Virus record (IMG/VR): IMGVR_UViG_2563366923_000002
Location: 1-7,940 of that record
DNA length: 7,940 nucleotides
From: a virus
Lineage: Duplodnaviria; Heunggongvirae; Uroviricota; Caudoviricetes
Direction: 5' to 3' (one strand)
The position numbers and the translations under genes are program-made. Numbering within the stretch: the stretch's first letter is position 1; each line of letters begins with the position of its first letter. Below the pieces are notes generated by a model. The model was not told where the DNA came from, ran no database searches, and saw only the letters and a program-made list of their open reading frames with translations. Below are positions 1,156 to 7,940 of this stretch, one piece after another.

Positions 1156-1177
1156 GACATTTTCTCTAGAAAATGTC
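1156..1177 (+). terminator. Inverted repeat GACATTTT-N6-AAAATGTC 4 nt after the int stop, followed by GCGCGCTTTTCAC; weak candidate int terminator or protein-binding palindrome
   Basis: Perfect 8-bp arms with a 6-nt loop (CTCTAG) read directly from the sequence. The stem is AT-rich and the T run is short and offset, so terminator function is uncertain. Confidence 0.3.
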
Positions 1178-1236
1178 TGCGCGCTTTTCACTCAACTTTA
1201 TTTCCACACTATAAAAACACAGAATCATAAGGAAAA

Positions 1237-1266
1237 TTTGGAGGTATCTACAAAACTTGATAATAT
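1237..1266 (+). promoter_or_regulatory. Possible sigma70-type promoter for the acyltransferase gene (TTGGAG, 17-bp spacer, TAATAT)
   Basis: Hexamers read by eye about 45 bp upstream of the ATG at 1308. Both are imperfect matches to consensus; no experimental basis. Confidence 0.2.
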
Positions 1267-1307
1267 CGTGACATTTTCACAAACAGAGCAACAGGATAGT
1301 AGCCAAG

Positions 1308-2372
1308 ATGAAATCTAGCACCAAACAAGATGTAGGGATACAATATTTAAGGGGGGTATCTGCTTTATATGTCGTATTTTTCCATTTTAGAGAGTTTTTA
1401 GATAATTTTTTGCCAATAGCTATGTTGGGTCAAAAATTTTTTAGCAATGGCGCTTTCGGTGTTGATATGTTTTTTATAATTAGCGGATATATTATTTCTC
1501 TTTCAACAGAAAAAAAAGACAACTCAATTGTTAAGGGATATATCATAAAAAGATTTTTCAGAATATATCCTGCTTATTTCATAGCACTCTCTATTTTGAT
1601 TATTTTATCCCCAATAAAATATTCTCACCATGATATTTTACGTTCATTTATGATGATCCACCCTGATTATCAATATAATGCACCTTACTTTGGCTATGGT
1701 GTACTATTTACAGCATGGACATTAACATACGAGATATATTTTTATATAATATTTCTAATAGGTATGTTTTTCTCACACAAACATCGCATTATATTTACAT
1801 CAACAATTGCAATATTTGCTATGATATCAATACAGCTTATTTTCAACAAATCAATAAACATTTTCCATCAGGAACAAATTAAAAATGGCGCGGGGATATT
1901 GAATGTCCCAGGAAATATAATGGTTATAGACTTTATATATGGAATGTTTATTTATAAGATTAGAAATCATTTAAAATTAAATAAATATTCTATCGCAATA
2001 TCATTTTTACTTATATCAATTGGATTTATAACAATACAATCAGGAGTAAACGCTGGGCATGGTCCACTGCAATACGGGCTTTACTCCCTAATGATTGTTC
2101 TAGGGGTTGTTATGTACGAGAAAAATAACAAAATTACCGAGATTAAGCCATTGGTTTTTCTTGGAGATATCTCATACTCAGTTTATTTGTATCATGTGAT
2201 AATTGCTACATGTGCATATTCACTCCTATTAAAAATAGGATTTTCAGGATTATCTATGTTCTCTATGATGACAGTTTTATCAATATTTCTTGCGTATATT
2301 TCATATGTTTTAATTGAAGTTCCATCAGTTAAGGTAGGGCATTTAATGTTAAAAAAACAAACGAAAGGTTAA
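1308..2372 (+). CDS. Acyltransferase family 3 integral membrane protein, likely O-antigen/LPS O-acetyltransferase (lysogenic conversion, Oac-like), 354 aa
   Basis: The N-terminal segment IQYLRGVSALYVVFFHF carries the conserved Arg and His arrangement of the first transmembrane helix of acyltransferase-3 enzymes. The whole protein is strongly hydrophobic with many predicted helices. Its position between int and tailspike matches the oac position in Sf6-type phages. Codon usage is extremely AT-rich. Confidence 0.85.
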   Translation: MKSSTKQDVGIQYLRGVSALYVVFFHFREFLDNFLPIAMLGQKFFSNGAFGVDMFFIISGYIISLSTEKKDNSIVKGYIIKRFFRIYPAYFIALSILIILSPIKYSHHDILRSFMMIHPDYQYNAPYFGYGVLFTAWTLTYEIYFYIIFLIGMFFSHKHRIIFTSTIAIFAMISIQLIFNKSINIFHQEQIKNGAGILNVPGNIMVIDFIYGMFIYKIRNHLKLNKYSIAISFLLISIGFITIQSGVNAGHGPLQYGLYSLMIVLGVVMYEKNNKITEIKPLVFLGDISYSVYLYHVIIATCAYSLLLKIGFSGLSMFSMMTVLSIFLAYISYVLIEVPSVKVGHLMLKKQTKG

Positions 2373-2448
2373 ATATTAAAAATGTTCTTCATGGACAATA
2401 GTAAAATACCACCTCCTGAGGAGTTTGTTTAGGGATAACAATAAAAAT

Positions 2449-2475
2449 AGGCATCCAAAATGAATGCCTTTTTTA
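2449..2475. terminator. Bidirectional rho-independent terminator between the convergent acyltransferase and tailspike genes
   Basis: An A-rich tract (AATAAAAATA), a stem of about 6 bp (AGGCAT/ATGCCT, 2449-2454 and 2464-2469) with a 9-nt loop, then a T run (2470-2474). It sits exactly between the two convergent stop codons (2372 and 2476) and reads as hairpin plus U-tract on either strand. Confidence 0.5.
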
Positions 2476-3744
2476 TTACTGAATAAGATAAGCAAAAAAG
2501 CTACAGGCCACTTCGCCAGAAGTGTTGTCTCTTACTATTTTTATAGTATTATCGACGACGCCTGCTGAAATATTTGTTGCAACATCAGTTGATGTCGCAA
2601 TCACACCAATAGACGATGTATTTTGAATTGATTTTATTGTTAGAGGAATTTGTACTGATGCAGATCCATCGGGAATGATAATTATTCCTGTTTGTTTATC
2701 TGGATGGCTTGGTGAATCATTATTTATGAGCCTGCAGTTTGTTGGGCCTACGCTCGCCCCTCCATTAATGACTGTATTATATAGATATGCACTAGCACCA
2801 CCACCTGCATTATCAAAAATGGAAATATCTGCCACCCTGCCACTAGTAAGAGTGCAATTAATTACCCTTACATTCGTTACTGAGTTGACAAGAAGATCCC
2901 CGATTTGTTCATCTACGAGGTTGTTATTTTGGATGATGCAATTGTTTAGAGTTACATTAGAAGGTGAAAATATGTTCTTTGTTATTTCCACCCCCCATTT
3001 TCTACTGTCTGAAAATGTAGAACCAACAGCGGTAAACATATCACTTGAGCCTTCAATAATTGCACAAGATGATGTTGAAGAGTTAGATGAAAAATACCCA
3101 CCAACCAACGTTGCTTGTTTACTGTCCTTTACTCTTAGAGCAGGACCAGTAGCAAGATCTGACATAACGTCAATCAACCATGTCCAAGCCACCCCATCAA
3201 TATCTATTGCTGATAGACCAGCGTCTTCGTAACCGCATGAATAAAATAATTCACCATGCAACTTAAGCCCCTCTGTAATTGTTGAGACATCTTTTTTTTC
3301 ACATCTAGCATAAAACCCGGAATAACAATCTGAGTATGTATTCATAAGCATTCTTGAGTTTATTTGCCCGCCTTCAAATCTTATGCCCCAACTGCTAGCT
3401 GCAAACCTGTTATGTCTAATATCAAGCTCAGCTGCAGAATACCCTGATGGTGAATATATGCATGAGTTTAAAAAAGAAAATGAACACTCTTCTATCGTAA
3501 TAAGAGGACTCTTAATTAGAAAGCCAACACAATTACTTCCACTCTTTCCATATTTTGATGTAATGTTTAACCCATAAAATCGACTAAACTCAGAACCTTT
3601 TAATAAAATAAAGCAAGCATCTCCGTTTTTTAATGGCTCAATTACACTAAGTTTTTTAGAATCTCCATAAATACAAACCACGCTGTCTATTTCAATATTA
3701 GAAATGTAATACGGTAGGTTATTTCCTGGAACATAAATTTTTTT
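2476..3744 (-). CDS. Tailspike, C-terminal receptor-binding segment (right-handed beta-helix, putative O-antigen depolymerase); reading frame is -1 relative to the head-binding segment
   Basis: The ORF frame is open back to a TAA at 3748-3750. Read through the A7 tract, the junction gives ...[43 protein letters not shown]..., the DFGA...AIQ...YVPxG motif typical of pectate-lyase-like beta-helix proteins. The rest is rich in Asn/Ser/Thr/Gly repeats typical of beta-helix tailspikes. AT-rich like the adjacent acyltransferase. Stop TAA at 2476-2478. Confidence 0.75.
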
Positions 3745-4298
3745 GTTTTAGAGCTATCACTCTTAATGGCTTGTATGGCCGAATTAAATGCAGCGCTACA
3801 ATCAGTTCCAGGGATGGCTCCAAAATCAGTTATGCTAATAATCTCTTCATTTTTATCATGTTGTGTAGTGGTTATAGATCCGTCATGCGGCTGCTTTACG
3901 AAAACAACGTGATCATTAACAAGACCTGTTAATGTATCTGATTGTAGTTCACGTTTCAGCATATCAGGGTCATACTTCAGCACATTCGGAAAATAGAACT
4001 GCTGCGAACCGTACGCATCATAAACAGCCATAGAATGGCCTTGCACAGTTACGAACTTGGCAATCTGTCCGTTATATACGGGGTAACCTGCAGCGTTAAT
4101 GATGATTGGTTGCGATACAGGAACGTGAGAGCCGTCTTCGTTCTCTACATAAACCTGAATCTGGTTTTCAGAATTTACCGGGTCAGTGTCAATTTTACCG
4201 ATATAAATTTTGCCATTGGCTACGGCTTTAAAAGAACGAGCCATAGTGAAGAGTTGCGAAGGCATGCTGACCACAACATTTGCGGTGATATCTGACAT
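3687..4298 (-). CDS. Tailspike, N-terminal head-binding domain segment (P22 gp9-like); terminates prematurely at TAG 3687-3689 after the frame break
   Basis: Translation from the ATG at 4296-4298 gives [42 protein letters not shown]...[17 protein letters not shown]...NVLKYDPD, a close match to the P22 tailspike N-terminus as recalled from memory ([42 protein letters not shown]...). GGAG lies 6-7 nt upstream of this ATG. The ORF-track start at 4346 adds 16 unlikely leader residues. Confidence 0.9.
3738..3744 (-). other. A7 homopolymer (coding strand A AAA AAA) where the tailspike reading frame breaks; candidate -1 ribosomal frameshift or slipped-strand site, or a sequencing or decay indel
   Basis: The upstream frame reads ...ACA AAA AAA TTT ATG... 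(TKKFM) and stops 17 codons later. The downstream frame reads AAA AAA ATT TAT GTT (KKIYV) and continues for about 420 codons. One extra A or a -1 slip fuses them. Confidence 0.6.
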
Positions 4299-4323
4299 TT
4301 CATTGCTCCAGACGAATGATATG

Positions 4324-4346
4324 ATGCAACCATGATGTGATTGCAT
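4324..4346. promoter_or_regulatory. Palindrome ATGCAA-N11-TTGCAT (extended imperfect 21-bp dyad TGCAACCATGATGTGATTGCA) in the divergent mnt/tailspike control region; candidate repressor operator
   Basis: Inverted repeat read directly from the sequence, 26-48 bp upstream of the tailspike ATG and upstream of the Mnt-like gene. P22 Mnt is known to bind a palindromic operator, but this sequence is not the P22 operator as I remember it. Confidence 0.3.
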
Positions 4347-4419
4347 ACCGAAATGGTACTATTGAGTATTTATCCAGTAGGTTACGATGCCATTCCACCC
4401 AACTGGTGAGGCATCAAGG

Positions 4420-4680
4420 ATGTACAGCAAATACGACGAGGCGCAGTTTCACTTGAGACTTCCGCATGAACTCCACGCGAAAATTAAGCAGCGTGCGAAG
4501 ATGAATAACAGGTCGCTGAACTCAGAGATAATTGCAGCGATTGAGGAATCATTGGATAAACAAAGCTCTGCATCAGTTTACATTGACGATGCAGAGCGTA
4601 TGGCAGAACAACAATCTGATATGGTTAAGAAAATTGTCTTTGATACGCTCAAGAAGCTATATAAAAAAGACAGCAGATAA
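4420..4680 (+). CDS. mnt: Mnt-like ribbon-helix-helix transcriptional repressor (Arc/MetJ superfamily)
   Basis: FHLRLPHELHAKIKQRAKMNNRSLNSEIIAAIEESL and DAERMAEQQSDMVKKIVFDTLKKLYKK align with P22 Mnt (FNFRMPMEVREKLKFRAEANGRSMNSELLQIVQDAL ... DAERLADEQSELVKKMVFDTLKDLYKK, from memory). The ORF is open from the ATG at 4387; the ATG at 4420 (MYSKYDEAQFHLRLP) fits the Mnt alignment better. Either start is possible. Confidence 0.85.
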   Translation: MYSKYDEAQFHLRLPHELHAKIKQRAKMNNRSLNSEIIAAIEESLDKQSSASVYIDDAERMAEQQSDMVKKIVFDTLKKLYKKDSR

Positions 4681-4700
4681 CCATCCGTTACGGAGGATTT

Positions 4701-4778
4701 ATGCACAGAGATATGCTGAATATTGCGTTCTACATATTTGGTTTTTACACGTTCCTGGTGTTTGCGAAGCTATTCTGA
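4701..4778 (+). CDS. Hypothetical 25-aa hydrophobic peptide (MHRDMLNIAFYIFGFYTFLVFAKLF), possible small single-pass membrane protein
   Basis: GGAGG at 4692-4696 lies 4 nt before the ATG, 21 nt downstream of the mnt stop on the same strand. The peptide has a charged N-terminus followed by an 18-residue hydrophobic stretch. It is too short for the ORF track and has no homology support. Confidence 0.3.
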   Translation: MHRDMLNIAFYIFGFYTFLVFAKLF

Positions 4779-6479
4779 CAGCGCATCAGACTTAGCCCCC
4801 TGAGTCAGGGCGTTAATGGCCTTTTGTGCCTGCTGCATGGCTTTCTCGAACGCTGTTGATCCGCGTGGGGTGTTTGCCATTCGGAGCATTGCATTTCTGA
4901 ATGGCTCGCTCTCATAGGCGCGAGTAAGAAGTCCGTAGCTTACCGCTGCGCCAGTTGTCGCAGGGTTCATTGCCGTCCCATACCCGATAATGAACGGGAT
5001 GGTTTGCTGCCCTGTTGGTGTTGTTACTGCCGCTTTTGCAGCCTGCTGCGTGGATTGCAGGTAGTTTTTCAATCCTTTCAGATAAGCAGCGTCCTGCCCC
5101 TTAAATGTGATGCCAGTCTGGTTTTGCAGGATGTTAAGCTGCCGAAGGAACTGGTCAGGGGATCCGCCAGATTTCTCCATCGCCTTTCCAATGATGCCAT
5201 TGCGCATTTGCGCCCTGCCAACACGACCAACTGAGTTATACAGCGTCTTAATTTCCGATTTGTTCTTGCTGAATAGCATGTTGTTGACAACTTCCGGCGT
5301 CAGATCGCCTTTCATGAGAACATTCTTCAGCCTGGTATTCTTTAGTTTCGCGGCTTCGTCAGCGTAGACGGCATTGGCCTGCTGATATTTACGGAGAGTA
5401 ATAGCACCGCCAGCCAGCACACCAACGCCTAAATCGGTGGCGAGTGCTTCCGCATCATCTTTCGCACTGTTTGCAGCAAGTGATCCAACTGCGTTTTCTG
5501 CTAGAAGGCGAGTTGCCCCCTGAGCAATTCGACCAGCAAGTGTTGGTGACTGTGTTGCCGCTCTCTCAACGCCAGCAGGAGTGAGGTAAGGCAATGCTTC
5601 AGCAAATACCCTTCCCTCTGTCGTTTGTGGAGTCAGCGCGCCTTGCTGAAGGCCAAAGTCCTGCTCTAATCCCTGCGTTGTTACTCGTGGTGCTGGTTGA
5701 TATGTACCATCGCCAATGCCGAGTTTACCTCCAGCCCAAGCCGCCGCGCTTGTTACAGCATCAGTGAGTTCAGCAGGTATGTTCGCTACGTTGATTCCTG
5801 CCTGTAGTAAGCCGCGCCCGGTTTCAGCAAGTCCATTACCAAGGTCAGACATTATTCCGCCTTGCTGCTGAACAGGTTTCGGTGCGACAGAACTTACGGG
5901 TTGAGGTGGCTGCTGACTGGCTGCCTGCTGCTCAATCTGAGCAAATGGATTATTTGGGTCTGACTGCACGCCTGATGCCGATACTTGTTCGGATGACTGT
6001 GCTTCCAGTTGTGCAAACGGGTTGTTAGGGTCTTGCTGAGGATGTACCTTTGCAGAGGTGGCGCGCTGTTCGACTGTTGAGTCTGTCACCGGGTCACCCG
6101 CCCATTGAGCAAAGCGATCATCAACGTAACCGCGGCCTTCAGGTCCTAGCGTATATTCACCACGCTTTGCCTTCATAACGTTGCCGGGACCGTCGTGATA
6201 AGCCTGAAGAGCGTCACGCCAGTTACCAAACTGCTGGTACATCTTTGCCAGATAGCGCGCGCCAGCGTCAGCCTGATATTCGGGGTTTTGCATTTGCTCA
6301 TCGGTATAACCCATATCACGCCATGTCCCAGGCATGACCTGAGTCAATCCTACAGCCCCGGCGGAGCTTACTGCGGCAGGGTTGTAAGAAGACTCCTTGG
6401 CACCCAGTGCAGTCATCAACCCTTCTGGCACACCGTAACGTGCGCCAGCCTGCTCTAACAAATCACGGTAATTAGCCAT
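4770..6479 (-). CDS. Virion internal/ejection-type protein with N-terminal lytic transglycosylase (SLT) domain, 569 aa
   Basis: GAKESSYNPAAVSSAGAVGLTQVMPGTW is the classic SLT motif (catalytic Glu in ES, then S...GA.GL.Q). No signal peptide. It is followed by a Q/P/S-rich linker with a duplicated DPNNPFAQ(L/I)E motif and an Ala/Gly-rich C-terminal region. Its ATG (6477-6479) abuts the TAA stop (6480-6482) of the upstream gene. Confidence 0.8.
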   Translation of the reverse strand: MANYRDLLEQAGARYGVPEGLMTALGAKESSYNPAAVSSAGAVGLTQVMPGTWRDMGYTDEQMQNPEYQADAGARYLAKMYQQFGNWRDALQAYHDGPGNVMKAKRGEYTLGPEGRGYVDDRFAQWAGDPVTDSTVEQRATSAKVHPQQDPNNPFAQLEAQSSEQVSASGVQSDPNNPFAQIEQQAASQQPPQPVSSVAPKPVQQQGGIMSDLGNGLAETGRGLLQAGINVANIPAELTDAVTSAAAWAGGKLGIGDGTYQPAPRVTTQGLEQDFGLQQGALTPQTTEGRVFAEALPYLTPAGVERAATQSPTLAGRIAQGATRLLAENAVGSLAANSAKDDAEALATDLGVGVLAGGAITLRKYQQANAVYADEAAKLKNTRLKNVLMKGDLTPEVVNNMLFSKNKSEIKTLYNSVGRVGRAQMRNGIIGKAMEKSGGSPDQFLRQLNILQNQTGITFKGQDAAYLKGLKNYLQSTQQAAKAAVTTPTGQQTIPFIIGYGTAMNPATTGAAVSYGLLTRAYESEPFRNAMLRMANTPRGSTAFEKAMQQAQKAINALTQGAKSDALSE

Positions 6480-7484
6480 TTACTGCCCCAAAGATGGAAG
6501 ATATCCGTAGCGATTAATGAAGTCGATTGACAGCTCGGGGTGCTGCTTCAGGTAATCTATAGAAGCCTGAGGCGCTTCCACTCGCTTGATACCGTTTTGC
6601 TGAACGTACTTACCAACCGCCTCATTACGCTTCTGGTTGAGCGTGTTCAGGATGACGCCAGCGTTGCGACGAAAGGACTCCTCGCTCTGCGAGTTCTGCA
6701 GCGAACCAACAGCCTGGTCGAGCTTTTTGCCCTCGGCATCAGAAAGTGCGCCCATGCCTCGCATGGCCTGAACCGCTGTCAGGTATGCTTGTGATTTAAA
6801 GGTATCAAGTCGTGCCTGAGTGTCTGCAGCCTGTGAGCCTGGAACGTTGGGGATTACTCCACGTAAGCCTGTAATGCTCTTAAGTGAAGGAGAACTAACG
6901 ATATCGTTCAGAGTGAACATGCTGGTTGTGATGGTGTTGATGCCGTCTTTGTAGCCATCATTTAGCGCTTGCTGCTTCTGCTGCAACTGCTGGTTGTTGG
7001 CTGCTATGCGGCTCTGTATTTCCTGGCGCTTCAGGTCGTTAGTTTCTGCTGATAGCATCCGGTCAAGGCGCTTATTTTCGTTGTTAATGCGGTTTGTTTC
7101 TGCGTCCAGGTTAATGCGCTGCTGACCTAAATTCGCCTGGATATCTTGTCCGCGCATTGTGATTGCCTGATTCCGAGCGGCGGTTTGCGAATCCAGATCC
7201 TGACCGCGCATGGTAACCTGTCGACCCTGCATTTTATCCTGTAGGTCAAAGTATTTTTCGGGCCCGAGACTGTTCATCCCCAGGTGATCGACAAATTCGC
7301 CGAACTGCCGCGGGTTCTGTTGGTACATCTGAGCGACGTCATGAGGATTAACGCCAACACGAGCTAACTCACCGGCGTTGTTTTGCAGCCATGATTGCAT
7401 TGCTTCTGGAGAAGATGACGCAAGACGTGCGCCAGCCGCTAATGTACCGATAGAATTACGCTGGTCTTCATCAATGAATCCCAT
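6480..7484 (-). CDS. Putative virion/ejection protein, Gln/Asn-rich with coiled-coil-like repeats, 334 aa; start uncertain, possibly 5'-truncated
   Basis: Long ORF tightly coupled to the downstream SLT gene. Contains a tandem peptide repeat (VTMRGQDLDSQTAARNQ / AITMRGQDIQANLGQQR). The ATG at 7484 has only AGG one nt upstream, and the frame stays open a further 24 codons to a stop at 7557-7559 with no alternative start. Confidence 0.6.
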   Translation of the reverse strand: MGFIDEDQRNSIGTLAAGARLASSSPEAMQSWLQNNAGELARVGVNPHDVAQMYQQNPRQFGEFVDHLGMNSLGPEKYFDLQDKMQGRQVTMRGQDLDSQTAARNQAITMRGQDIQANLGQQRINLDAETNRINNENKRLDRMLSAETNDLKRQEIQSRIAANNQQLQQKQQALNDGYKDGINTITTSMFTLNDIVSSPSLKSITGLRGVIPNVPGSQAADTQARLDTFKSQAYLTAVQAMRGMGALSDAEGKKLDQAVGSLQNSQSEESFRRNAGVILNTLNQKRNEAVGKYVQQNGIKRVEAPQASIDYLKQHPELSIDFINRYGYLPSLGQ

Positions 7485-7606
7485 GCCTTTACGAACGGAT
7501 TCAATCTGGTCTGGATATTGAGTATACCCCTCCGAATGAGACTCAACAAGCTGGAGCTAGACTACCAGCCACCACACCACCAAAGCTAACTGACAGGAGA
7601 ATCCAG

Positions 7607-7692
7607 ATGGATGCACAAACACGCCGCCGCGAACGTCGCGCAGAGAAACAGGCTCAATGGAAAGCAGCAAATCCCCTGTTGGTTGGGGTACT
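7607..7692 (+). pseudogene. N: 5' fragment of a lambda-type N antiterminator gene (arginine-rich boxB-binding peptide), diverging after about codon 28
   Basis: AGGAG at 7595-7599 with 7-nt spacing to the ATG at 7607. Translation MDAQTRRRERRAEKQAQWKAANPLLVGV equals the N-terminus of phage lambda N as I recall it, then continues as unrelated LIQYQRENALCVMQMWCPRTRKTN with a stop at 7763-7765. No nutL boxB hairpin found upstream. Confidence 0.7.
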
Positions 7693-7712
7693 CATTCAGT
7701 ATCAGAGGGAAA

Positions 7713-7940
7713 ATGCGCTATGTGTCATGCAAATGTGGTGCCCAAGGACCAGAAAAACGAACTAAATCTGAAGCGATTTCTTCATGGAATAGTCGAATGA
7801 AAGTATGGGTTTATGATCCAGAAACCATATTAAACGCTGAAGAGCGCAGGAGAACGGAAGTCTATATTCATAACCTTAATGAAGATGGATTTACACCAGT
7901 GCTTGTAAAGGCTACTCCGCAGGAGGTTACCGGCGTGTAA
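7713..7940 (+). CDS. Small protein with Lar-like (restriction alleviation family) C-terminal motif, 75 aa from the ATG at 7713; possibly a truncated or degenerate family member
   Basis: VSCKCGAQGPEKRTKSEAISSWNSR resembles the second zinc-knuckle and C-terminal region of Lar-family proteins (C..CGA.GP...EAI.AWN.R, recalled consensus), but the first CPFCG knuckle is absent. AGAGGG lies 4-5 nt before the ATG. The ORF-track version starts at 7611 and overlaps the N fragment in another frame, so that upstream part is probably not real. Stop TAA at 7938-7940. Confidence 0.4.
   Translation: MRYVSCKCGAQGPEKRTKSEAISSWNSRMKVWVYDPETILNAEERRRTEVYIHNLNEDGFTPVLVKATPQEVTGV

What the first reader, a model, noticed from the sequence alone, without database searches (positions are those of the whole stretch)
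7557..7765. Lambda N antiterminator fragment at a mosaic junction, without a nut site
From about 7570 the sequence carries the lambda N ribosome-binding region and the first 28 codons (MDAQTRRRERRAEKQAQWKAANPLLVGV, the boxB-binding peptide), then abruptly switches to unrelated sequence around 7692. The N frame ends after 24 more codons, while a different frame carries the Lar-like ORF. I found no boxB-type hairpin (GCCCTGAA(A/G)AAGGGC) or boxA upstream. This looks like a recombination scar joining a lambdoid early region to P22-like virion genes. If translated, the 52-aa product would still contain the complete RNA-binding arginine-rich motif.
Basis: partly seen in the sequence, partly recalled or inferred. 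Interest (0 to 1): 0.6.

Follow-up and report, generated by a model that had tools for sequence, protein, structure and literature searches.

The report
Dead N gene stub in prophage remnant
This is a real 28-codon leftover of the lambda-type N antiterminator gene, stranded between two deletion scars in a decayed P22-like prophage beside the E. coli argW tRNA gene; it is an ordinary pseudogene that the standard NCBI annotation pipeline already labels as one.

Summary
Window 7523-7690 is 100% identical to the N leader and the first 28 codons of N in phages HK544, HK446 and mEp213. Homology stops at 7690. From 7689 the sequence is 99.6% identical to Sf6 gene 20 (Lar-like). The window has no boxA or boxB.

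It is a deletion scar, not a mosaic joint between two phages. The window is the remnant of one P22-like prophage at argW-dsdC. P22-like phages such as Sf101 and vB_EcoP-720R6 carry this N type natively, together with the same ejection-protein genes.

Three junctions, each with a 2-nt TA overlap or a shared TA, bound the pieces:
- gp20'|N leader at 7523/7524
- N codon 28|Lar codon 18 at 7689/7690
- Lar codon 97|antisense dsdC' at 7929/7930

E. coli 730V1 has the same N'-Lar'-dsdC' scar but keeps cI, PL and a complete nutL, which lies 185-214 nt upstream of the window's breakpoint. PGAP annotates N' there as an incomplete pseudogene.

The window itself is 100% identical to two independent assemblies. 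I found no convincing promoter. Lar' has lost its first zinc knuckle.

Verdict: a non-functional remnant of low interest. A decoy role for the retained RNA-binding peptide is not excluded but has no support.

The parts
6480..7524 (-). gp20' : the 3' 1045 nt of the P22-type DNA-ejection protein gene. The 5' 287 nt are missing. The longest remaining ORF is 334 aa, against 443 aa for the intact gene.
   Evidence: Homology to IME10, Sf101 and 730V1 gp20 ends at 7524. The intact 443-aa gene is present in 730V1 and L013. Precomputed Pfam hit: PF16928.
7523..7524 (.). Junction 1. A TA is shared by the gp20 side and the N-leader side. This is the end point of a deletion of about 2.37 kb relative to 730V1, or about 1.67 kb relative to L013.
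   Evidence: blastn pieces overlap by 2 nt. Three-way comparison of the sequences across the joint.
7523..7606 (+). The last 84 nt of the N leader, including the Shine-Dalgarno AGGAG at 7596-7600. PL, boxA and boxB lie upstream of the breakpoint and are absent.
   Evidence: 100% identity to HK544 and 730V1. In 730V1, boxA is at L001 8787-8794 and boxB at 8802-8816, while window homology starts at L001 9001.
7607..7690 (+). N codons 1-28 (MDAQTRRRERRAEKQAQWKAANPLLVGV). The boxB-binding arginine-rich motif is complete. The NusA-binding and RNA-polymerase-binding parts are absent.
   Evidence: PGAP annotates the same 84 nt in 730V1 as a pseudogene: 'antitermination protein N, incomplete, missing C-terminus'.
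7689..7690 (.). Junction 2. A TA is shared by N codon 28 (GTA) and Lar codon 18 (TAC). The deletion removed the rest of N and the early-left genes down to Lar.
7691..7765 (+). The out-of-frame tail of the N' ORF: 24 codons plus a stop, read from Lar' DNA in the wrong frame.
7689..7929 (+). Lar' : codons 18-97 of the 100-codon Sf6 gene 20 (Lar-like restriction alleviation protein). The first 17 codons, which include the CPFC zinc knuckle, are missing.
   Evidence: 99.6% identity to Sf6. Sf6 translation: MNLYRCPFCGSTVLNIGYSF.... The Pfam PF14354 score falls from 35.8 to 22.6 bits, below the 28.6 cut-off, and only profile positions 24-57 are matched.
7611..7940 (+). A 109-aa chimeric ORF. It starts at an ATG in the +1 frame of N, runs in frame into Lar', and ends with 3 codons and a stop supplied by antisense dsdC. 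Some gene callers call it a gene. PGAP calls an 85-aa version that starts at TTG 7683.
7930..7940 (-). Start of the truncated chromosomal gene dsdC (junction 3 at 7929/7930). It continues beyond the window as a 128-aa stub containing only the HTH domain.
   Evidence: Sf6 homology ends at 7929. The PGAP pseudo-CDS 'LysR family transcriptional regulator, missing C-terminus' starts at L001 9408, which is window 7930, and is followed by dsdX and dsdA.

Best explanation
The N fragment is a non-functional pseudogene remnant inside a heavily decayed P22-like prophage of the Sf6/IME10 type. The prophage is integrated at tRNA-Arg argW, between yfdC and dsdC, in E. coli.

The prophage originally had the usual order: argW-int-oac-tailspike-arc/mnt-gp16-gp20-...head, lysis, Q, replication...-cro-cI-PL-nutL-N-early-left genes-Lar-gene 19-xis/torI-att-dsdC.

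End joining at very short microhomology (TA at each joint) then removed three stretches:
(a) N codon 29 through Lar codon 17.
(b) Lar codon 98 through the attachment site into the 3' part of dsdC.
(c) In the window's lineage, everything from gp20 codon ~96 to 84 nt upstream of the N ATG. This took out cI, PL and nutL.

Shown: the three break points, the shared scar in relatives, the chromosomal context, and the absence of nut and of a good promoter.

Inferred: the order of the deletions, the slippage or illegitimate-recombination mechanism, and that the fragment is silent.
For: 1. Break points were defined at nucleotide level against HK544 N, Sf6 gene 20 and 730V1.
2. E. coli 730V1 covers the whole window at about 100% identity in three pieces. 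It keeps full gp20, KilA-N, Rz/Rz1', cI, PL and nutL upstream of the identical N'-Lar'-dsdC' scar. There the element is flanked by tRNA-Arg/yfdC on one side and dsdC'/dsdX/dsdA on the other.
3. The window is 100% identical over all 7940 nt to two independent assemblies, GCA_048336235.1 and Logan SRR29249369. The same gp20'|N' joint is present in at least six further contigs, so this is not an assembly artefact.
4. Other contigs carry other, overlapping deletions with different left end points but the same N'-Lar'-dsdC' scar (L013, L017, L018). That is what stepwise decay predicts.
5. No phage record among 50,697 spans the joint, and only 1 of 5,426 complete E. coli genomes does.
6. Sf101 and vB_EcoP-720R6 carry both this N type and the same gp20/gp16 genes, so N is native to this phage type.
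7. The window has no boxB or boxA. There is no sigma-70-like site in 7200-7940, and only one weak site in 4300-7940, which is fewer than chance.
8. A published P22-like phage, Kapi1, integrates at argW with int next to yfdC and xis next to dsdC. This is the same orientation as here (PMC8787464).
Against: - The N ribosome-binding site and start codon are intact, so read-through transcription from the + strand could still yield the 52-aa peptide. The consensus scan cannot rule out weak or non-sigma-70 promoters.
- The 52-aa ORF is listed in 106 blocks of the assembly index. That shows persistence, but it may only reflect repeated sampling of one lineage.
- No expression data were available.
Confidence: 0.9

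Rival explanations
1. The 52-aa N' peptide is made and acts as a boxB decoy. Its intact arginine-rich motif binds the nut boxB RNA of superinfecting lambda-type phages, but it lacks the NusA-binding and RNA-polymerase-binding parts. It would therefore compete with the phage's own N and blunt antitermination. That would be a crude exclusion function, analogous in target to HK022 Nun.
For: - Residues 1-28 are 100% N and cover the part of the N36 peptide solved with boxB.
- The SD and ATG are intact.
- Nun shows that an ARM protein competing at boxB can exclude lambda (PMC5386594).
- In relatives such as 730V1 and L013, the fragment still sits behind PL-nutL under a cI repressor.
Against: - The window has no promoter-like site and no nut.
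- Nun needs its C-terminal segment to arrest RNA polymerase, and nothing equivalent is present here.
- N is an unstable Lon substrate (general knowledge), and a 52-aa peptide with a random tail is unlikely to accumulate.
- The joint occurs in only 1 of 5,426 complete genomes, and all copies are identical, so no signal of selection can be read.
- In relatives PL would be repressed by cI, so no peptide would be present at the time of superinfection.
Confidence: 0.03
2. The deletion created a new working gene. The N ribosome-binding site drives the 109-aa ORF from ATG 7611, or the 85-aa ORF from TTG 7683, giving a Lar-type restriction-alleviation protein with a new N-terminus.
For: - The ORF is open from 7611 to 7940 and in frame with Lar'.
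- Gene callers and PGAP call it a protein and name it Lar family.
- The C-terminal 80 codons are 99.6% identical to Sf6 gene 20.
Against: - The first CxxC of the four-cysteine zinc ribbon is deleted.
- The Pfam score is below the gathering cut-off, and only the second half of the profile is matched.
- The last three residues come from antisense dsdC.
- No promoter was found.
Confidence: 0.03
3. The joint is a natural mosaic boundary of a viable phage, or an assembly chimera.
For: Lambdoid phages are mosaic, and short-read assemblies can collapse repeats.
Against: - The element lacks head, lysis, replication and immunity genes, and it is flanked by chromosomal argW/yfdC and dsdC'XA.
- No phage record spans the joint.
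- The same joints are found in a closed genome and in several independent assemblies.
Confidence: 0.01

Closest known systems
Lambda-type antitermination protein N (HK544/HK446/mEp213 allele; Pfam PF11438 N36)
   Same: The leader (84 nt), the SD, the start codon and codons 1-28 are identical. The complete boxB-binding arginine-rich motif is encoded.
   Different: Codons 29-108 are missing; these hold the NusA-binding and RNA-polymerase-binding regions. There is no nutL and no PL in the window. The ORF ends in 24 unrelated codons.
Cryptic prophages at argW in E. coli (CPS-53/KpLE1 of K-12; P22-like prophages such as Kapi1, Sf6 and IME10)
   Same: The integration site is the same, and so is the orientation, with int next to argW/yfdC and the xis side next to dsdC. 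It has the same IntS-type integrase, the O-antigen-modifying gene next to int, and the tailspike, gp16 and gp20 genes.
   Different: Only about 8 kb remains. The dsdC-proximal attachment site and the 3' part of dsdC are deleted, so the element can no longer excise.
Sf6 gene 20 / Lar family restriction-alleviation protein (PF14354)
   Same: Codons 18-97 are 99.6% identical at the DNA level.
   Different: The first 17 codons, which carry the CPFC knuckle, and the last 3 codons are lost. The score is below the Pfam cut-off.
HK022 Nun (ARM protein that competes with N at boxB and excludes lambda)
   Same: It is an N-terminal ARM able in principle to bind lambda boxB, encoded by a resident prophage.
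   Different: There is no Nun-like C-terminal arrest segment, no sequence relationship beyond the ARM class, and no evidence of expression.

Membership tests
Lambda N antiterminator | N-terminal arginine-rich motif that binds boxB (residues about 1-22) | tested here: met
   28/28 identity to HK544 N. Pfam N36 at 6.4e-20, profile positions 1-27 of 35. PDB N chains are matched over residues 1-30.
Lambda N antiterminator | NusA-binding region (about 34-47) and C-terminal RNA-polymerase-binding region (about 73-107) | tested here: not met
   Homology to N stops after codon 28, and the remaining 24 codons come from Lar' DNA read out of frame. The region boundaries are from established knowledge of N.
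Lambda N antiterminator | Cognate nut site (boxA + boxB) in the leader transcribed from PL | tested here: not met
   The window has no boxB with up to 3 mismatches and no boxA. Both are present in 730V1 at L001 8787-8816 and in HK544, upstream of the deletion end point.
Lar family restriction alleviation protein (PF14354) | Complete domain with two CxxC knuckles, scoring above Pfam's gathering cut-off | tested here: not met
   The score is 22.6 bits against a cut-off of 28.6, and only profile positions 24-57 of 58 are matched. Intact Sf6 gene 20 scores 35.8 bits. The CPFC knuckle is in the deleted 17 codons.
Defective (cryptic) prophage | Phage genes at a known attachment site next to an integrase, with essential modules missing and genes interrupted | tested here: met
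   The intS-type integrase lies next to tRNA-Arg. There are no head, lysis, replication or immunity genes. gp20, N, Lar and the tailspike are truncated or frameshifted.
Nun-type exclusion protein | ARM plus a C-terminal segment that arrests RNA polymerase; expressed from the prophage | tested here: not met
   There is no C-terminal homology and no promoter-like site. Expression cannot be tested with these tools.

The most novel reading that the evidence does not exclude
The retained 28-residue N ARM, translated from its intact ribosome-binding site, acts as a boxB-binding decoy. It would weaken N-dependent antitermination of incoming lambda-type phages. This could operate in this strain through read-through transcription, or in relatives that still have PL-nutL in front of it. 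The 'dead' gene stub would then be a primitive superinfection-exclusion factor.
Probability: 0.03. Interest if true: 0.5.

Novelty: already known. Interest (0 to 1): 0.08.

Why it matters
It matters little on its own. It is a textbook gene fragment left by prophage decay, and the automatic NCBI annotation already flags the identical fragment as an incomplete N pseudogene.

Its modest value is as a marker. One identical three-part scar (N'-Lar'-dsdC') is shared by a set of E. coli assemblies that differ by further nested deletions, a tailspike-module swap and a different immunity region. That gives a natural series for ordering the steps of prophage decay at the variable argW-dsdCXA locus.

The same deletion also truncates the D-serine regulator dsdC, which may matter more to the host than the N stub does.

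Tried and rejected
- **Species-representative genomes:** I scanned genome contigs for exact 36-37-nt strings across both junctions. Neither gave a hit, so the joints are absent from the species representatives. They were found instead through the exact-protein index.
- **Rfam:** a scan of the window and the 730V1 locus at gathering thresholds found nothing.
- **RNA folding:** the retained leader plus N' (7523-7700) folds no better than shuffles do (z = -1.44). The fragment shows no evidence of a conserved structure.
- **Promoters:** none in 7200-7940. One weak match inside the arc/mnt ORF in 4300-7940, which is below chance.
No N homology exists beyond 7690 in any frame.
- **IS-mediated origin of the deletions:** I considered this because all three joints end in TA and 730V1 carries an IS5 nearby. 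No IS sequence is at or next to the joints, so I dropped it.
- **Literature:** a search for reported dominant-negative N-terminal N fragments turned up nothing directly relevant apart from the Nun precedent.

Full report
**Observation**

A megablast of 7400-7940 against phage records splits the region into two blocks:
- Window 7523-7690 is 100% identical (168 nt, E = 2e-82) to the N leader and the start of N in HK544, HK446, mEp213 and vB_EcoP-720R6. It is 99.4% identical to Sf101, and lambda itself matches from 7568 at 99.2%.
- Window 7689-7929 is 99.6% identical to Sf6 gene 20, annotated as a Lar-like restriction alleviation protein.

The 52-aa ORF at 7607-7765 is 28/28 identical to HK544 N and then diverges. 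It hits Pfam N36 at 6.4e-20 and matches solved N chains (5lm7, 6gov, 1qfq) over residues 1-30. The window has no boxB-like hairpin sequence, even with three mismatches, and no boxA. All factual parts of the finding are confirmed.

**What the window is**

The ORF list and the similarity searches give this layout:

| Coordinates | Strand | Feature |
|---|---|---|
| 1-1152 | + | IntS-type integrase |
| 1308-2372 | + | O-antigen acyltransferase |
| 2476-4298 | - | Tailspike gene, frameshifted |
| 4387-4680 | + | Arc/Mnt repressor |
| 4770-6479 | - | gp16-type ejection protein with a transglycosylase domain |
| 6480-7524 | - | 3' part of the gp20-type ejection protein |
| 7523-7690 | + | N stub (leader plus codons 1-28) |
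| 7689-7929 | + | Lar stub |

These are the int-proximal arm and a sliver of the early-left arm of a P22-like phage of the Sf6/IME10 type.

In the closed genome of E. coli O19:H7 730V1, the whole window is found at about 100% identity in three pieces. There the element lies between tRNA-Arg/yfdC and dsdC'/dsdX/dsdA. This is the argW attachment site used by Kapi1 and other P22-like phages, in the same orientation: int next to yfdC and xis next to dsdC (PMC8787464).

The Sf6 record places attP on the xis side of int. In a lysogen the int-oac-tailspike arm and the Lar-xis arm therefore form opposite ends of the prophage, which is how they are arranged here.

**The three junctions**

- **Junction 1 (7523/7524).** gp20 homology ends at 7524 and N-leader homology begins at 7523, so the two share a TA. 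Relative to 730V1, about 2.37 kb are missing. The lost stretch holds the first 287 nt of gp20, a KilA-N gene, Rz/Rz1 remnants, the cI-type repressor, PL and nutL.
- **Junction 2 (7689/7690).** N codon 28 (GTA) is joined to Lar codon 18 (TAC), again through a shared TA.
- **Junction 3 (7929/7930).** Lar codon 97 is joined to the antisense strand of a truncated dsdC. The last three codons and the stop of the 'Lar' ORF are therefore chromosomal DNA.

These short overlaps suggest illegitimate (microhomology) end joining or replication slippage. That mechanism is an inference.

**Why no nut site is present**

In 730V1 the sequence upstream of the N stub reads ...GACGCTCTTAAAAATTAAGCCCTGAAGAAGGGCAGC... 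It has boxA at L001 8787-8794 and boxB at 8802-8816, downstream of a PL-like promoter. The window's homology begins at L001 9001. nutL was therefore removed by junction 1, and its absence needs no other explanation.

**The Lar-like ORF is also a fragment**

Sf6 gene 20 begins MNLYRCPFCGSTVLNIGYSF..., and the window keeps only the part from Y18 onward. The first CxxC knuckle is gone. The Pfam Lar score falls from 35.8 to 22.6 bits (cut-off 28.6), and only the second half of the profile is matched.

By chance, an ATG at 7611 in the +1 frame of N opens a 109-aa ORF that runs in frame into Lar'. Gene callers disagree about this region. They call the 52-aa ORF, the 109-aa ORF, or (PGAP) an 85-aa ORF starting at TTG 7683.

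**Not an artefact, and not a phage**

The window is 100% identical over its full length to contigs from two independent assemblies, GCA_048336235.1 and Logan SRR29249369. The gp20'|N' joint recurs in at least six more contigs.

No record among 50,697 phage genomes spans the N'-Lar' joint, and only 730V1 among 5,426 complete E. coli genomes does. Two exact-string scans of species-representative genomes found nothing.

**Relatives show stepwise decay**

Every contig read that carries the 52-aa ORF has the same N'-Lar'-dsdC' scar, but the contigs differ upstream:

| Contig | State upstream of N' |
|---|---|
| 730V1 | Keeps gp20, KilA-N, Rz', cI, PL and nutL |
| L013 | Lacks KilA-N and Rz |
| L017 | Lacks gp20 |
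| L018 | Deleted from inside gp16 to just before cI |
| Window type | Lost everything from inside gp20 to the N leader |
| L015/L006 | Window-type joint, but a different tailspike/gp16 module |
| L016 | Q, nin, replication, cII and cro genes and a different repressor, joined to the identical nutL-N'-Lar'-dsdC' segment |

In L016, homology with the other contigs starts at the PL start point.

Junctions 2 and 3 are therefore the older scars, since all variants share them, and junction 1 is a later event in one sub-lineage.

**Function**

The most likely answer is none, with confidence 0.9. The NusA-binding and polymerase-binding parts of N are missing, there is no nut site to act on, and no sigma-70-like promoter precedes the fragment. 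There is no promoter match in 7200-7940. There is one weak match in 4300-7940, inside the arc/mnt ORF, which is fewer than shuffles give. The retained RNA shows no special fold and no Rfam match.

PGAP already annotates the identical 84 nt in 730V1 as 'antitermination protein N, incomplete; missing C-terminus'.

**What remains open**

The ribosome-binding site, the start codon and the full arginine-rich motif are intact. A peptide made by read-through transcription could in principle bind the boxB of incoming lambda-type phages and compete with their N. HK022 Nun is the precedent for exclusion through boxB competition (PMC5386594).

Nothing supports this idea here. There is no promoter and no Nun-like arrest segment, and the identical copies carry no readable signal of selection. 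In relatives that keep PL, the fragment would be repressed by cI in the lysogen. I give it about 3%.

**Comparison and novelty**

The piece is a fragment of a lambda-type N gene, and the membership tests for a working N fail on two of three defining features. It sits in a cryptic P22-like prophage at argW, a locus already known to be hypervariable (PMC8787464, citing Moritz and Welch 2006). This is an already known kind of object and it is already annotated as such.

Interest is low, at 0.08. The shared scar with its nested deletions is a tidy example of prophage decay, and the accompanying truncation of dsdC is probably the more consequential change for the host.

Noticed in passing
window 3737-3744 (tailspike gene, - strand, 2476-4298): A T8-to-T7 change in a homopolymer run frameshifts the tailspike gene into 401-aa and about 203-aa ORFs. 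730V1 and L017 have the intact 607-aa gene. The frameshift recurs in several independent assemblies, so it is probably real.
   Followed up: partly
window 7930-7940 and beyond (L014 10321-10707): The deletion that cut the 3' end of Lar also removed the dsdC-proximal attachment site and the C-terminal part of dsdC. dsdC is the activator of D-serine detoxification. A 128-aa stub with only the HTH domain is left in front of intact dsdX and dsdA. The prophage remnant therefore cannot excise, and D-serine regulation is probably altered.
   Followed up: partly
window 1156-1177, between int and oac: A perfect 10-bp inverted repeat (GACATTTTCT..AGAAAATGTC) lies just after the int stop. In 730V1 an IS5/ISKpn26 element is inserted at the CTAG in its centre (window 1166-1169). 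The window lacks this IS.
   Followed up: partly
L013, L017, L018, L001 (730V1) versus window 4982-7523: At least four different, overlapping deletions occur between gp16 and the N leader in otherwise about 99.97% identical loci. All share the N'-Lar'-dsdC' scar, so they form a natural nested series of prophage decay steps.
   Followed up: partly
L015 and L006 (locus coordinates 1170-7800): These contigs have the same gp20'|N' junction, but the int-proximal module differs. The integrase is only 95% identical. The tailspike is a different 669-aa protein, gp16 is 797 aa, and extra small genes replace oac. This suggests module replacement by recombination with another P22-like phage after the deletions.
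   Followed up: no
L016 1-9660 (GCA_900604275.1, UWNV01000001.1): A near-complete early-right operon (Q, ninH/G/F/X, dam, ninB, an intein-containing DnaB, O, cII, cro) and a different repressor sit directly upstream of the identical nutL-N'-Lar'-dsdC' segment. Homology to the other variants starts at the PL start point. This would fit a heteroimmune phage having recombined into the remnant through the nutL-N' homology. I could not walk further upstream.
   Followed up: no
window 7523/7524, 7689/7690, 7929/7930: All three deletion joints in the window sit at a TA dinucleotide. I verified that the TA is shared by both parental sequences at the first two; the third was compared on the Sf6 side only. 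This may be coincidence, and no IS sequence is adjacent.
   Followed up: partly
window 7607-7940: Annotation is inconsistent across pipelines. The same DNA is called as a 52-aa 'N36' protein plus a 47-aa ORF, as a 109-aa ORF, or as an N pseudogene plus an 85-aa 'Lar family' protein with a TTG start. The 'Lar family' protein name is probably an over-annotation of a truncated gene.
   Followed up: yes
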